Part shown: one piece after another, positions 40,182 through 43,097 of the stretch
How the letters are laid out: every line of letters starts with the position of its first letter
Position numbering within the stretch: position 1 is the stretch's first letter
Source of the DNA: a bacterium
GTDB taxonomy: Bacteria > Hinthialibacterota > Hinthialibacteria > Hinthialibacterales > Hinthialibacteraceae
Direction: 5' to 3'
Assembly (NCBI GenBank): GCA_963662285.2
Contig: CAXXMV010000006.1
Span: 928,001 to 992,000 of the forward strand
Length of the DNA stretch: 64,000 nt
Made by a program: the position numbers and the translations under genes
Notes under the pieces: model-generated
Seen by the model: the letters and a program-made list of their open reading frames with translations, nothing else
Database searches by the model: none
What the model was told of the DNA's origin: nothing

Positions 40182-40886
40182 TTGGAAGGATGCCGAATAA
40201 TGATCACTGGTCCCCGCGATTTGTATATACCCGCTGATAGTTGGAAAGAAATGGTGCGGATGGCAGCTCCTAATCCACAAGGAATGGATGTAGGATTCGC
40301 CAAAGCCCTGGATCAATTTGAGCGCTACTCTGCTACCATCGGCGGTGAAATTGGCGATTCCATCCAGCGCTGCCATGATCACCTGCAACGTTTCCTTGCC
40401 ACTGCGCAGGAAGTAATAAGCGCGGAATCCGGAGAAAATCCAGCAAGATTAGGAAGACCGCGTAATTTCGACTACGGCGACAAAGAACTTGTTTTTCAAG
40501 TATTCAACTACCAGGATAAAGATACGGTATCCATCCGGGAGGATCGATTCGCAACTATCCTGACCAATTACGACAGATTCCGGGATACTATGCATTTTAT
40601 GGAAAGAAAAGTCAAAGAAGGTAATCTGGGAATATTACAAAACACCTTCCTGTTTATCCATAAACCTCTAGAACAGGCGGCCCTGAATTTTGATAAAGCT
40701 ATAAATAAAACGCCGTTAGTTCACACAACTATAATCGGACAAGAAGCAGATCCTACTTATGTCCATATTTCAGGGACGGAGCCATCAAAAGAGGTCGATC
40801 CAGGTTTAATATGTAGAGTACTAAAACCAGGATACGCCTTTGAAGGCCGTGAAATTCAAGAGGGCGTTGTTATTGTTGCAGAATAA
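40182..40886 (+). CDS. Hypothetical protein with a GrpE-like C-terminal beta domain
   Basis: DPTYVHI...RVLKPGYAFEGREIQEGVVIV. Confidence 0.55.
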   Translation: MEGCRIMITGPRDLYIPADSWKEMVRMAAPNPQGMDVGFAKALDQFERYSATIGGEIGDSIQRCHDHLQRFLATAQEVISAESGENPARLGRPRNFDYGDKELVFQVFNYQDKDTVSIREDRFATILTNYDRFRDTMHFMERKVKEGNLGILQNTFLFIHKPLEQAALNFDKAINKTPLVHTTIIGQEADPTYVHISGTEPSKEVDPGLICRVLKPGYAFEGREIQEGVVIVAE

Positions 40887-41089
40887 TTTCAAGTTAAGCG
40901 GTCTATTGAGGTCGCTTTTTTCCATATTATACCTACCAGCAGGCAATTTTTACCGCCTGCTTTTTTATTGCTTAAATTAATCCCATAAATTTCAGGCAAA
41001 AATACTGGAAATATAAGATAAGTAATTTCAGTGTATTATATAGCACATCCCAACTTTTTTTTATAAAAATGAACCATAATATGTTTGGA

Positions 41090-41105
41090 TGGCACGTAGA
41101 TTGAT
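41090..41105 (+). promoter_or_regulatory. Sigma54 promoter
   Basis: TGGCACG-TAGA-TTGAT: perfect -24 box, -12 box TTGA instead of TTGC; predicted +1 near 41116. Confidence 0.65.
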
Positions 41106-41115
41106 ATAAGAGAGA

Positions 41116-41293
41116 GTGGGTGCTGTAGCGGAGGTTGTATTAGAACTTCGACAGGGAATTTCGAGTGAACTGCCGAGGTACCGAACAACCTTCGAGGGTC
41201 GAAGGTTTCAACAAAGTTGGTGGCGGAGCTACCCTAACCTTCGGTACACTGAAAAGACCGGATACAAGCGGAGCTTGATACCGGTCTTTTTTC
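41116..41293 (+). ncRNA. Putative structured sigma54-dependent small RNA
   Basis: GC-rich island in an AT-rich spacer; multiple complementary segments; ends in the terminator AAAAGACCGG...CCGGTCTTTTTT. Confidence 0.55.
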
Positions 41294-41507
41294 TTTTAAA
41301 TTTTTTGTATTGATTTTATTAGTATTATGTTAGAAATATATTAAAGAGCTTTAAGTTACTCTTCTATTAATAATAAATCCGCCCTATTCTCTCAAAGTAT
41401 ATGTCCAAATAGATATCCAATTGAGTTCAAAAAGGTGACTTGGCGCCTAAACGTTTTATCTCAATATCAAGCAAATTGCATAAGGTATGGAAGGTTATTA
41501 ATAAATC

Positions 41508-43097
41508 ATGACCATTGATTCTCCAATGTTCATTTATATTACAGGTAGTTTATCGGTATTAATGCTCATCTGGTTAACTATTGAAGTTGGTAGAAATGAT
41601 GCGGCTAATATTGTTAATGCGGTTTTCGGCGCGCGGGTTCTTCGGCGTAAAACAGCAGTTAGAATTGCAGCGCTCACAGTCATTATTGGCGCCTGGGCAT
41701 CATCGCCAGTCATGGAAACTGCCCGTAAAGGCATTTTCGACCCCGCATCGATTCCTGTGCAAGATGCTCTTTGCATCTACCTGGCTGTATATCTGGTAGA
41801 TACAGTTCTTCTCTTTTCATTCTCCTCTTTTGGAATGCCAATATCAACTACCGCATGTCTGGTCTTTTCGCTTCTAGGTGGAGGTTTCGCTTTAGGCGGG
41901 GCGGATACAATTCAATGGGACACAAGTATTAAGGTTATTTTCGCCATTATATGTTCAATATTCATCAGCGGCGCACTGGGTTTTCTTATCCAACGAGCAT
42001 TCCGGGGGGCAATCGGACAGGAATGTGAAGACCCTGTCAAAGTACGACTGCACGGCCCATGGATCGCAGGCGCCTTGCTGACAGGTTTAGTCTATTTCAT
42101 CCTGATGAAAGGCATGAAAAAACATTCTTCTAATTGTTTCTTTACGTCAGATGACTATTGATATTCTCGGCGCCCCGACAGTTCTTCTATTGGTTTGGAT
42201 TTTCCTATCCTTTATTATTTGGATTATTATTTACATTTGGAAAGACAAAGTATCCCGCAAGCTTTTTGCAGCCATGGCGATAATCGGAATGCTTGCCATC
42301 GCCATTGCCTTTGGACAAAACGATCTTGCCAATTGCGCCTCACCAGGGGTAGCTTCATGGATGATCCTGGAAAATGGATTAGAAAATGCCCATCTAGCCC
42401 ATGAATATCCAGTACGTCCCGAACTGTTGTTAATCTGTGGATGTTTACTTGCATTTGGCATGATGAGTAAAACAGCGCAGCGCGTGACTCGTTCGGCGGT
42501 TAATACCGGGAGTCAGGGTGACGTCGTCCGGCTTTATGCTCCTGAATGGTGCGTTAAAATTGCGAAATTTATTACTCCCCCGGCAAGATCATGACGAATC
42601 TCTGGCGCCTGAACCTGAATATACTCCAAAACATAAACTTCAGCATTACGATGCCCTTCGCGCTGCCGTTATTACATCAGTTTCTGCCAGCGTTATTGCA
42701 TTCGCTTCTGGCATGGGGCTTCCAGTATCTACTACTTACGTTGCGTTTGCAGCAGTTATTTCAACCGGATGGGCGGATAGAATATTCCAGCGCGGAGATG
42801 CTCAGTTAAAACTGGGACGGACTATCTGGGTTGTGTTCTGCTGGTTTTTTTCCGCTTTTGTAGCGGCGATATTTAGCGGCGTCACTGCCAAAACTATTAA
42901 TTTAATGGGAACTTTTTGGCATCATCCTCGTTCTGGTAATTAACTTGTATGTACGTTGGTATTTCAAAAATAAATCAGATCAACAGGAAGAAAGACTTCA
43001 AAAGGAAGCGGATGAACGTCGACAACAAATAGTTGATGATTCTTACGACTCAACACAGATGCTTTTCGATTGTGATATCGATTCTGAAGAAGAGTAG
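41508..43097 (+). pseudogene. PiT/PHO4 inorganic phosphate transporter split by three +1 frameshifts
   Basis: GRNDAAN, GMPISTT, FGQNDLAN, GLPVSTTYV; the shifted frame continues to TAG at 43095-43097. Confidence 0.8.

What the first reader, a model, noticed from the sequence alone, without database searches (positions are those of the whole stretch)
41090..41293. Sigma54-driven structured non-coding RNA candidate with alternative pairings
Seen: TGGCACG-N4-TTGA places +1 near 41116, exactly where a GC-rich ~175-nt segment begins, and the segment ends in a strong terminator. GTCGAAGGTT (about 41198-41207) can pair with AACTTCGAC (about 41144), AACCTTCGA (about 41187) or AACCTTCG (about 41236). 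GTACCGAA pairs with TTCGGTAC, and the 5' GGGTGCT matches AGCTACCC. There are five GGA motifs, one in the loop AAGC-GGA-GCTT. I recognise no tRNA, SRP, tmRNA or standard riboswitch consensus. Inference: a novel sRNA (possibly a CsrA sponge or 6S-like) or a switchable attenuator upstream of the phosphate transporter.
Basis: partly seen in the sequence, partly recalled or inferred. Interest (0 to 1): 0.7.

Follow-up and report, generated by a model that had tools for sequence, protein, structure and literature searches.

The report
Sigma-54 small RNA aimed at flagellin
This is a previously undescribed, roughly 175-base non-coding RNA gene with its own sigma-54 promoter, conserved across one order of uncultured bacteria, whose two unchanging unpaired parts exactly match sequences in front of the main flagellin gene, so it most likely ties filament production to the building of the flagellar hook and rod.

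Summary
Window 41116-41292 (+) is a stand-alone structured RNA gene, not a protein gene, not 6S RNA and not a leader of the phosphate transporter.

- **Distribution:** one copy in 23 of 26 genomes of one order, and 0 of 9 in the rest of the phylum as held here.
- **Known families:** no Rfam family matches.
- **Promoter:** all 26 distinct homologues keep a -24/-12 sigma-54 promoter at fixed spacing. 23 of 24 keep an upstream GG[CA]A-N6-[TGA]CC motif, which also precedes the sigma-54 promoters of the hook (fliK-flgD-flgE) and rod operons.
- **Fold:** covariation supports two stem domains plus a terminator.
- **Target, new here:** the invariant 5' end GGGUGCUGUAG and the invariant apical loop UCGAGUGAAC are perfectly complementary to conserved sites in the long leader of the major flagellin gene. 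These sites lie upstream of a CsrA-type hairpin. They are absent from flagellin leaders of sister orders that lack the RNA.

Best reading: a flagellar middle-class, sigma-54-dependent, base-pairing sRNA that acts on flagellin mRNA. The sign of regulation, expression and any CsrA binding by its two invariant GGA loops are untested.

The parts
40942..40954 (+). Candidate enhancer (activator-binding) motif GGCAATTTTTACC, 148 nt upstream of the -24 element
   Evidence: The motif GG[CA]A-N6-[TGA]CC with an A/T-rich spacer lies 120 to 200 nt upstream of TGGCA in 23 of 24 sRNA loci, mostly at 134-161 nt. The same motif lies about 124 and 135 nt upstream of the sigma-54 promoters of the fliK-flgD-flgE and rod operons. 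Its role as a binding site is inferred.
41090..41104 (+). Sigma-54-type promoter: -24 TGGCAC (41090-41095), 5-nt spacer, -12 TTGA (41101-41104)
   Evidence: Sequence. The script found a -24/-12 pair at fixed spacing in 25 of 26 distinct homologues, and the 26th (L058) shows it. The predicted +1 lies 1-3 nt before the invariant GGGUGCU in the 25 scored. No sigma-70-like site lies upstream of the RNA. rpoN is present.
41116..41292 (+). Predicted sRNA transcript, about 177 nt from the predicted +1 to the end of the T run
   Evidence: Covariance-model hit G000:C6:969118-969292, which is window 41118-41292, at 144.9 bits. One copy in the genome. Present in 23 of 26 genomes of the order. The ends are predicted, not measured.
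41118..41128 (+). Invariant unpaired 5' end GGGUGCUGUAG (proposed seed)
   Evidence: Positions 1-7 and 9 are invariant in 26 sequences and unpaired in the consensus structure. It is perfectly complementary to CTACAGCACCC at G000:C2:713409 and 713436. Duplex energy -22.2 kcal/mol, reached by 0 of 3000 random genomic windows.
41130..41193 (+). Domain I: stem P1 (41130-41138 pairs with 41185-41193) enclosing hairpin P2
   Evidence: The P1 core is paired in 94.6% of cells, and 6 of 8 pairs show changes on both sides. Part of that count comes from register shifts. Real compensatory changes were read in L018, L016, L027, L051 and L022.
41146..41178 (+). Hairpin P2 (arms 41146-41154 and 41170-41178) with a large apical loop carrying the invariant CGAGUGAAC (41162-41170)
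   Evidence: P2 is paired in 96.2% of cells, and 4 of 8 pairs show changes on both sides. The loop is complementary to GGTTCACTCGA at G000:C2:713533, which sits in the loop of a conserved hairpin in the flagellin leader. Duplex energy -18.9 kcal/mol, reached by 0 of 3000 random windows.
41199..41244 (+). Domain II: stem P3 (41199-41207 pairs with 41236-41244) enclosing hairpin P4 (41219-41233) with GGA loop 41225-41227
   Evidence: The P3 core is paired in 92.8% of cells, with 3 of 8 pairs changed on both sides. P4 is paired in 98.7% of cells. GCGGAGC is invariant in 26 sequences.
41252..41292 (+). Intrinsic terminator hairpin with invariant loop region GCGGAGC (GGA at 41270-41272) and T run 41287-41292
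   Evidence: Fold. The helix is paired in 94.5% of cells, with 8 of 15 pairs changed on both sides. The loop sequence is invariant although the stem varies.

Best explanation
Window 41116-41292 encodes a stand-alone, trans-acting small RNA of about 175 nt. It is transcribed by sigma-54 RNA polymerase as part of the flagellar 'middle' (hook and rod) gene class. A still unidentified enhancer-binding activator is proposed to bind the conserved GGCAA-N5-TTCC-like motif about 150 nt upstream of the -24/-12 promoter.

The RNA folds into:
- a free 5' end;
- stem domain I, with a large apical loop;
- stem domain II, with a GGA-loop hairpin;
- a terminator hairpin with a second GGA loop.

Its free 5' end (GGGUGCUGUAG) and the domain-I apical loop (UCGAGUGAAC) base-pair with two or three conserved sites in the long leader of the major flagellin mRNA. 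One of these contacts is a loop-loop 'kissing' contact. All sites lie upstream of the leader's CsrA-type hairpin and ribosome-binding site. This couples flagellin mRNA translation or stability to hook and rod gene expression.

**Shown by computation:** conservation, non-coding nature, promoter and motif conservation, fold covariation, and the complementarity together with its phylogenetic co-occurrence.

**Inferred:** transcription, the activator, actual pairing in the cell, and the sign of regulation. On the sign I lean slightly towards damping or tuning of translation together with CsrA (about 50%) over activation (about 35%).
For: **1. Conserved single-copy gene.**
- One copy in the genome.
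- Present in 23 of 26 genomes of the order and 0 of 9 elsewhere in the phylum as held.

**2. Not coding and not a known family.**
- The ORF frame is open in only 5 of 26 homologues.
- No Rfam match.
- 6S RNA lies elsewhere in the genome.

**3. Promoter.**
- TGGCA[CT] or TGGTAC, then N5, then a -12 element, at fixed spacing in 26 of 26 homologues.
- rpoN, about 24 activator genes and hfq are present.

**4. Upstream motif shared with flagellar operons.**
- The motif is present in 23 of 24 sRNA loci.
- The same motif at a like distance precedes the sigma-54 promoters of fliK-flgD-flgE and of a rod operon.

**5. Fold.**
- 92.4% of cells are paired and 24 of 49 pairs change on both sides; 0 of 500 shuffles reach this.
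- The minimum-energy fold has this topology in 22 of 26 sequences.

**6. Target in the own genome.**
- The 11-mer complement of the 5' end occurs 3 times in 7.3 Mb: twice in the flagellin leader and once as the sRNA gene's own antisense strand.
- The loop complement lies about 100 nt further on, in a hairpin loop.
- 0 of 3000 random windows reach either duplex energy.

**7. Target sites are conserved.**
- AGCACCC occurs in 16 of 25 best-orthologue flagellin leaders, against a mean of 1.1 for permuted motifs.
- CACTCGA occurs in 17 of 25, against a mean of 0.7 (alignment).
- In the second family the sites sit on another flagellin paralogue.

**8. Co-occurrence.** 0 of 7 flagellin leaders in 5 sister-order genomes without the sRNA carry the sites, though they keep the CsrA-type hairpin.

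**9. Few other site clusters.** Genome-wide there are only 6 clusters of such sites. They include two flagellin leaders and a sigma-54-driven gene.
Against: - **No expression data.** No RNA run holds the locus, so the transcript, its ends and sigma-54 dependence are all predictions.
- **Weak -12 element.** In this genome it is TTGA, and in 19 of 26 homologues TTGT, rather than the canonical TTGC that other sigma-54-like sites in this genome use.
- **Flagellin mRNA start unknown.** I found no shared promoter motif upstream of the first site, so the sites may not all lie in the mRNA.
- **Sites missing in some leaders.** They are absent from 8-9 of 25 best-orthologue leaders.
- **One mismatch in co-occurrence.** G021 has no sRNA hit yet shows partial sites.
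- **No seed/target covariation.** I saw none between the seed and its sites, because both are nearly invariant.
- **Non-independence.** The genomes are kin, so the counts are not independent.
- **Alignment bias.** Alignment A4 was fitted to the tested structure, and some 'double changes' in P1 are register shifts.
- **Incomplete model.** Pairing does not explain why domain II and the two GCGGAGC loops are invariant.
- **Motif link is thin.** The enhancer motif was found upstream of 9 of 185 promoter-like sites, against 3 in the control window. The flagellar link rests on two operons.
Confidence: 0.62

Rival explanations
1. The RNA works mainly by binding CsrA: either as a decoy, or as a tethered decoy or recruiter that docks on the flagellin leader. 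One CsrA dimer would be held by the two invariant GCGGAGC hairpin loops, about 45 nt apart.
For: - Two hairpin loops with an invariant GGA, one of them in a terminator loop that would otherwise be free to vary.
- csrA is present.
- The target leader carries a hairpin with an ACGGAU loop and an ACGGAGG ribosome-binding site, which look like CsrA sites.
- Per its abstract in the listing, CsrA can promote an sRNA-mRNA complex in Bacillus subtilis (PMC6546359).
Against: - Only two GGA sites are invariant; the other GGA motifs are not kept (read).
- The loops are GGA triloops closed by C-G, unlike the A(N)GGA loops of known sites (recalled).
- csrA lies beside fliW. In such systems FliW, not an sRNA, is the known antagonist (abstracts of PMC4894983, and of the listing).
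- No Rfam CsrB- or Rsm-type match.
- Binding cannot be tested with these tools.
Confidence: 0.15
2. The RNA is a base-pairing sRNA whose main targets lie elsewhere. The flagellin leader then acts as a sponge for it, or is one minor target among many.
For: - The leader carries up to three seed-matching sites, as expected of a sponge.
- A second candidate target exists: a sigma-54-driven gene for a 390-aa protein with no Pfam match. It has a site at the start of its leader and one at codons 5-7. The exact site is kept in 6 of 17 orthologues.
Against: - No other target was found with sites for both the seed and the loop.
- The flagellin sites are the best conserved.
- I ran no genome-wide thermodynamic target search with comparative support.
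Confidence: 0.12
3. The element is a cis-acting leader or attenuator that controls the downstream phosphate transporter (PiT) gene through its alternative pairings.
For: - A PiT-family gene (PF01384) follows on the same strand in 10 of 22 distinct loci.
- Four repeat-like segments can pair in two ways, and the alternative is the minimum-energy fold in this genome by 1.6 kcal/mol.
Against: - The spacer to PiT is 144-732 nt and unconserved.
- Other families have nagB, TrkH or an opposite-strand gene downstream.
- Neither alternative pairing involves the terminator.
- The alternative arrangement shows no covariation: 3 pairs change on both sides, and 384 of 500 shuffles do as well.
Confidence: 0.03
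4. The segment encodes the 65-aa protein of ORF 41116-41313.
For: The ORF exists in this genome.
Against: - The frame has early stops in 21 of 26 homologues.
- The lengths of homologues differ by amounts that are not multiples of three.
- Conservation follows base pairs rather than codons.
Confidence: 0.01

Closest known systems
CJnc230 (FlmE) of Campylobacter jejuni (PMC11187230; abstract read)
   Same: A small RNA tied to the RpoN-dependent middle class of flagellar genes. It feeds forward on late gene (flagellin) output by base-pairing.
   Different: - FlmE is processed from the flgE mRNA, and its direct targets are flgM and a flagella-interaction regulator.
- The RNA here has its own promoter and terminator, is not next to flgE, and matches the flagellin leader itself.
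- No sequence relation was seen: nothing in Rfam matched. Whether FlmE has an Rfam model was not checked.
FlaX of Vibrio cholerae (PMC11879080; abstract read)
   Same: [quoted passage not shown]
   Different: [quoted passage not shown]
- The RNA here is a sigma-54 gene of its own. One contact is a predicted loop-loop contact, and the sites lie 100-280 nt upstream of the start codon.
- The mechanism and sign of regulation here are unknown.
Sigma-54-dependent sRNA genes with their own enhancer: Qrr1-5, plus GlmY and CrcZ
   Same: A stand-alone sRNA gene with a -24/-12 promoter, an upstream activator site and an intrinsic terminator.
   Different: - Basis: Qrr dependence on LuxO and RpoN comes from abstracts in the listing. 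GlmY and CrcZ are recalled, not read.
- There is no sequence or structure match.
- The phylum is different and the proposed regulon is flagellar.
CsrB/RsmZ-type CsrA-sequestering RNAs
   Same: GGA displayed in hairpin loops, in a genome that encodes CsrA.
   Different: - Only two invariant GGA loops, against many in known sponges (13-22 in CsrB/CsrC, per the listing abstract of PMC6546359).
- No Rfam match.
- The CsrA here is of the FliW-paired kind.
6S RNA (RF00013)
   Same: Similar length (about 180 nt), highly structured and conserved.
   Different: There is no match at this locus. A canonical 6S RNA is found at G000:C2:1539357-1539540 with 66.3 bits. The fold here is two stem domains rather than one long helix with a central bubble.

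Membership tests
Sigma-54-dependent promoter | GG at -24/-25 within TGGCAC | tested here: met
   TGGCAC lies at 41090-41095. The script found TGGCAC 20 times, TGGCAT 4 times and TGGTAC once. L058 has TGGCAT.
Sigma-54-dependent promoter | GC at -12/-13 (TTGC) exactly 5 nt after TGGCAC | tested here: inconclusive
   The spacing is kept in 26 of 26 homologues. The -12 element itself is TTGA in this genome. Among homologues, one search found TTGT 18 times, TTGC 4, CTGC 1 and CCGC 1, and L058 has TTGT. The G is kept; the C often is not.
Sigma-54-dependent promoter | rpoN and enhancer-binding activators encoded, and an upstream activator site present | tested here: met
   rpoN is present, together with about 24 strong Sigma54_activat hits. 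A conserved motif lies about 150 nt upstream in 23 of 24 loci. That it binds an activator is inferred.
Sigma-54-dependent promoter | Transcription start at the predicted place, lost without RpoN | not testable with these tools
   No RNA run holds the locus.
Base-pairing (Hfq-type) trans-acting sRNA | Own promoter and intrinsic terminator with a U tail; non-coding | tested here: met
   hfq is present in the genome.
Base-pairing (Hfq-type) trans-acting sRNA | Conserved unpaired seed with a conserved complementary site in a target mRNA | tested here: met
   The 5' end and the P2 loop are invariant. Complementary sites occur in flagellin leaders: 16 of 25 and 17 of 25. They are absent from 7 of 7 leaders outside the order.
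Base-pairing (Hfq-type) trans-acting sRNA | Demonstrated pairing and regulation; chaperone binding | not testable with these tools
   This needs a reporter assay with compensatory mutations, and a binding assay.
CsrB/RsmZ-type CsrA sponge | Many GGA motifs, mostly in hairpin loops | tested here: not met
   Two invariant GGA loops only. There are five GGA in this genome's copy, but the others are not conserved.
CsrB/RsmZ-type CsrA sponge | Match to a known Csr/Rsm RNA family | tested here: not met
   No Rfam match at gathering scores, or up to E=10.
6S RNA | Match to RF00013 | tested here: not met
   There is no hit at this locus. The genome's 6S RNA lies on another contig.
Cis-regulatory leader of the PiT gene | Constant linkage to the regulated gene and a conserved expression platform | tested here: not met
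   PiT lies downstream in 10 of 22 loci. The spacer is unconserved, at 144-732 nt. Other genes follow in other families.
FlmE (CJnc230)-like flagellar sRNA | Processed from the 3' end of the flgE transcript | tested here: not met
   The RNA has its own promoter. flgE lies at G000:C6:1682777-1685815 (L183 278-3316), far from C6:969118.

The most novel reading that the evidence does not exclude
The RNA is an mRNA-tethered CsrA adaptor. It docks on the flagellin leader through its 5' end and a kissing loop. It then uses its two invariant GCGGAGC hairpin loops to capture a CsrA dimer from, or deliver one to, the leader's CsrA sites some 50 nt downstream. That would be the first RNA partner of a FliW-type CsrA system, and a target-specific rather than global way of steering CsrA.
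Probability: 0.2. Interest if true: 0.8.

Novelty: new member of a known kind. Interest (0 to 1): 0.58.

Why it matters
Post-transcriptional control of flagellar assembly by small RNAs is known from only a few cultured proteobacteria and Campylobacter (abstracts). This finding gives a well-supported new sRNA family in an uncultured lineage whose related records are titled Candidatus Omnitrophota.

The family comes with a predicted regulator site, a predicted regulon (hook and rod operons) and a specific, conserved target (the flagellin leader). All of these can be tested in a heterologous host.

It also places a sigma-54 sRNA on the same mRNA leader that carries CsrA-type sites, in a genome with the FliW-CsrA pair. 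That makes the interplay of an sRNA with the FliW-CsrA-flagellin switch directly testable.

My searches of the held library found no paper describing this RNA: (Omnitrophota with small RNA or sigma-54).

Tried and rejected
**Rfam.** The whole window at gathering scores gave 0 hits. The locus up to E=10 gave only chance-level hits, none overlapping the RNA on its own strand. The flagellin leader up to E=1 gave 0 hits.

**Expression.** The look-up of sequencing runs listed no RNA holder, only two runs of one study whose kind is unrecorded ('?'). This says nothing about expression, and read laying was therefore not used.

**Collection scans.**
- Genome contigs: 24 loci, of which 19 are real and 5 are chance matches in unrelated high-GC records (L024, L026, L028, L032, L041).
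- Metagenome contigs: 12 loci, of which 9 are real (one cut off) and 3 are chance.

**Transporter link.** The GAAGGTT before the PiT start codon in this genome looked like a site for the RNA's CAACCUUC segments. It is not conserved.

**Complements of the GGA loops.** GCTCCG or CTCCGC in flagellin leaders is scattered, with no conserved site.

**Exact double-site pattern across the order.** Only G000 and G017 matched. The looser 7-mer count was needed.

**Flagellin promoter.** I found no shared motif upstream of the first site. A sigma-28-like site was seen only before another paralogue.

**Internal partner for the leader sites.** GGGTGCT occurs within the leader in only 4 of 29 leaders, at no fixed place.

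**Nearby activator gene.** None lies within the window.

**Not used.** Complex prediction, structure prediction and the large protein searches, because no protein question was decisive.

**Supplements.** Paper supplements were not consulted. Lists of sRNAs in the cited papers' supplements could bear on novelty.
Full report
**What is in the window.**
TGGCACGTAGATTGA lies at 41090-41104.
- A segment of 46-53% G+C runs from about 41116 to 41292, between flanks of 22-36%.
- It ends in a long hairpin followed by six T.
- The plus strand folds to -65.3 kcal/mol (z = -3.56; 0 of 200 shuffles as low).
- The listed complementary segments and the five GGA motifs are all present.
- No sigma-70-like promoter lies upstream of the segment.

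**Conservation and distribution.**
- The window is G000:C6:928001-992000 of a 7.29-Mb assembly, and the element is single-copy.
- By nucleotide search it is found in 17 of 19 other genomes of the same family and 3 of 4 of a second family, at 69-81% identity.
- A covariance model (R1) finds exactly one copy in 23 of 26 genomes of the order.
- The three misses are G017 and G015 (85-86% complete) and G021 (95% complete).
- It finds none in the other 9 genomes of the class and phylum as held by the tool, which hold 35 genomes in all.
- Named records among the relatives are titled 'Candidatus Omnitrophota bacterium'.
- With two collection scans I gathered 26 distinct sequences.

**Not coding, and not a known RNA family.**
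- The 65-aa frame is interrupted in 21 of 26 homologues.
- Homologue lengths differ by amounts that are not multiples of three.
- Rfam gives no match at gathering scores for the whole window, and only chance-level matches around the locus up to E=10.
- The genome has a canonical 6S RNA elsewhere, at 66.3 bits.

**Promoter and upstream motif.**
- Every distinct homologue keeps TGGCA[CT] (once TGGTAC), five bases, and a -12 element.
- In the 25 homologues scored, the predicted start lies 1-3 nt before the invariant GGGUGCU. The 26th, L058, was read by eye.
- The -12 element is mostly TTGT and is TTGA in this genome. Other sigma-54-like intergenic sites in this genome mostly have TTGC. This is the weakest point of the promoter call.
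- rpoN, about 24 activator genes and hfq are present.
- About 150 nt upstream of the -24 element, 23 of 24 loci carry GG[CA]A-N6-[TGA]CC with an A/T-rich centre. In the window it is GGCAATTTTTACC at 40942-40954.
- In the own genome this motif lies in the window 100-220 nt upstream of 9 of 185 promoter-like sites, against 3 in a control window.
- Two of those nine are the promoters of fliK-flgD-(putative flagellar)-flgE and of a rod-protein operon (Pfam; sequences).
- From this I infer that the RNA gene belongs to the flagellar hook and rod (middle) class and shares its activator.

**Structure.**
- Four segments are near-repeats, in the order a1 GAAGGUUG, b1 CAACCUUC, a2 CGAAGGUUG, b2 CAACCUUCG. 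They can pair either as a1:b1 plus a2:b2, or as a1:b2 plus b1:a2.
- The second arrangement is the minimum-energy fold in this genome (-65.3 against -63.7 kcal/mol).
- Across the family the first arrangement wins on every measure:
  - It is the unconstrained minimum in 22 of 26 sequences (3 show the other arrangement, 1 is mixed).
  - It is lower in 23 of 26, by 6.1 kcal/mol on average.
  - Its duplexes are stronger in 24 of 26.
  - On the same 16 core pairs it has 93.7% of cells paired and 9 pairs changed on both sides (0 of 500 shuffles reach this). The other arrangement has 88.1% and 3 pairs (384 of 500 shuffles).
- The whole model has 49 pairs. 92.4% of cells are paired and 24 pairs change on both sides.
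- Two cautions apply. The alignment was fitted to this model, and some double changes in P1 are register shifts of both strands.
- Real compensatory changes can be read in L018, L016, L027, L051 and L022.
- The resulting picture has five parts:
  - a free 5' end;
  - domain I: P1 enclosing hairpin P2, which has a 16-25-nt apical loop;
  - domain II: P3 enclosing hairpin P4, which has a GGA loop;
  - a short linker;
  - a terminator hairpin with a second GGA loop.
- The invariant stretches are the 5' end GGGUGCU, the loop CGAGUGA-C, and GCGGAGC twice.

**A target.**
- I scanned the own genome for complements of the invariant unpaired parts.
- The 11-mer CTACAGCACCC occurs three times in 7.3 Mb. 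Two copies lie at C2:713409 and C2:713436. The third is the sRNA gene's own antisense strand.
- About 100 nt further on, GGTTCACTCGA sits in the loop of a hairpin with stem CCGGGG/CCCCGG. It is the complement of the P2 loop.
- All three sites lie 130-270 nt upstream of a flagellin gene (Flagellin_N, 3.9e-38).
- The duplex energies are -22.2 and -18.9 kcal/mol. None of 3000 random 310-nt windows of the genome reaches either value.
- The leaders of the best flagellin orthologue in the order share a fixed plan (alignment):
  - site A, CUACAGCACCC;
  - a hairpin showing UCACUCGAC in its loop;
  - often a second site, ACAGCACCC;
  - a hairpin CCGGCACGGAUGCCGG;
  - the ribosome-binding site CACGGAGGA.
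- The last two elements resemble CsrA sites. That reading is recalled from work on flagellin leaders and was not tested here.
- AGCACCC is present in 16 of 25 such leaders and CACTCGA in 17 of 25. Permuted motifs average 1.1 and 0.7; only overlapping shifts of the same sites score high.
- In the second family the sites sit on another flagellin paralogue (L120, L126, L144), and in the third family on L129.
- In five genomes of sister orders without the RNA, 0 of 7 flagellin leaders carry either motif, although they keep the CsrA-type hairpin.
- G017 and G015 gave no RNA hit but do have the sites, which suggests assembly gaps. G021 gave no hit and shows only partial sites.
- In many leaders the hairpin loop lies about 30 nt upstream of the second site. 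In the RNA the seed lies about 40 nt upstream of the loop. One RNA molecule could therefore make both contacts in antiparallel fashion. This is inference.

**Other candidate targets.**
- Only six places in the genome have AGCACCC with another GCACCC within 90 nt.
- Among them are two flagellin leaders and the start of a gene for a 390-aa Q/S/T-rich protein with no Pfam match.
- That gene has a conserved sigma-54 promoter. The exact site is kept at the start of its leader in 6 of 17 orthologues.

**How it most likely works.**
- *Shown by computation:* a conserved non-coding gene; a conserved -24/-12 promoter and upstream motif shared with hook and rod operons; a covarying fold; and conserved, lineage-restricted complementarity of both invariant unpaired parts to the flagellin leader.
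- *Inferred:* when the flagellar activator fires sigma-54 promoters, the RNA is made together with hook and rod proteins. It then pairs with the flagellin leader upstream of the CsrA-type sites and changes translation or stability.
- *Sign:* open. Masking of an unstructured C-rich leader stretch resembles FlaX, which represses flaB in Vibrio cholerae (abstract). The RpoN-dependent FlmE of Campylobacter, by contrast, raises flagellin output (abstract).
- *Unexplained:* pairing alone does not account for the two invariant GGA loops. They may bind CsrA, which is encoded beside fliW.

**Comparison and novelty.**
- This is a new sRNA family of a known kind: a sigma-54-dependent, flagellum-linked, base-pairing sRNA.
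- It is not a member of the 6S, CsrB/Rsm or FlmE families by the features tested.
- My library searches found no description of it.

**Limits.**
- There are no transcript data.
- The flagellin mRNA start is unknown.
- The genomes are kin, so the counts overstate independence.
- Target prediction used exact words and duplex energies, not a full comparative method.

Noticed in passing
window 41508-42943: The phosphate-transporter (PHO4/PiT, PF01384) gene downstream of the RNA is split into three overlapping ORFs of 217, 147 and 141 aa. Relatives have one ORF of 440-540 aa. The cause is either two frameshifts (a decaying gene) or assembly errors.
   Followed up: partly
G000:C2:713400-713673 (outside the window); loci L085-L104: The flagellin leader is a conserved structured element of about 270 nt in its own right. 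It has several hairpins, a CCGGCACGGAUGCCGG hairpin and a CACGGAGGA ribosome-binding site that look like CsrA sites, and no Rfam match. Each genome has 3-8 flagellin paralogues, in open frames of about 850-950 aa, which is unusually long.
   Followed up: partly
G000:C8:237760-238994 (locus L157/L158): A gene for a 390-aa Q/S/T-rich protein with no Pfam match has a conserved sigma-54 promoter (TGGCAC-N5-CTGC). It carries two sites complementary to the sRNA 5' end, one at the start of the leader and one at codons 5-7. The exact site is kept in 6 of 17 orthologues.
   Followed up: partly
G000, about 20 copies, e.g. the plus-strand hits listed at C6 49618, C2 222065 and C6 1369366: A repeat family GCTGCCCTTGGCACCCGTATTGATCT...AAAACTT.TGGGTAAAGATC carries a sigma-54-like TGGCAC-N5-TTGA. 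It accounts for most TTGA-type hits in the genome. Its nature is unknown.
   Followed up: no
G000, at least 10 sites, e.g. the plus-strand hits listed at C3 89895, C6 846210 and C8 20388: A family of very similar sigma-54 promoters, TTGGCAC-N5-TTGCC.TATAACGTTTC, is followed about 40 nt later by AGGAGG and a start codon. This looks like a paralogous set of sigma-54-driven genes. They were not identified.
   Followed up: no
window 40182-40886: A 234-aa protein with only a weak match to the C-terminal part of GrpE (E = 1.1e-6) is the conserved upstream neighbour of the RNA in 11 of 22 distinct loci.
   Followed up: partly
loci L022, L036, L043 (second family) and L027: In the second family the RNA gene is followed by glucosamine-6-phosphate deaminase and a sugar nucleotidyltransferase. 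In L027 it is followed by a 117-aa ORF with no Pfam match and then a TrkH transporter. The neighbourhood is therefore not fixed across the order.
   Followed up: partly
G000:C6:248725-254640: A sigma-54 activator gene lies about 5 kb upstream of flgB-flgC, which have their own TGGTAT-N5-TTGC site. It is a candidate flagellar activator for the sRNA promoter.
   Followed up: no
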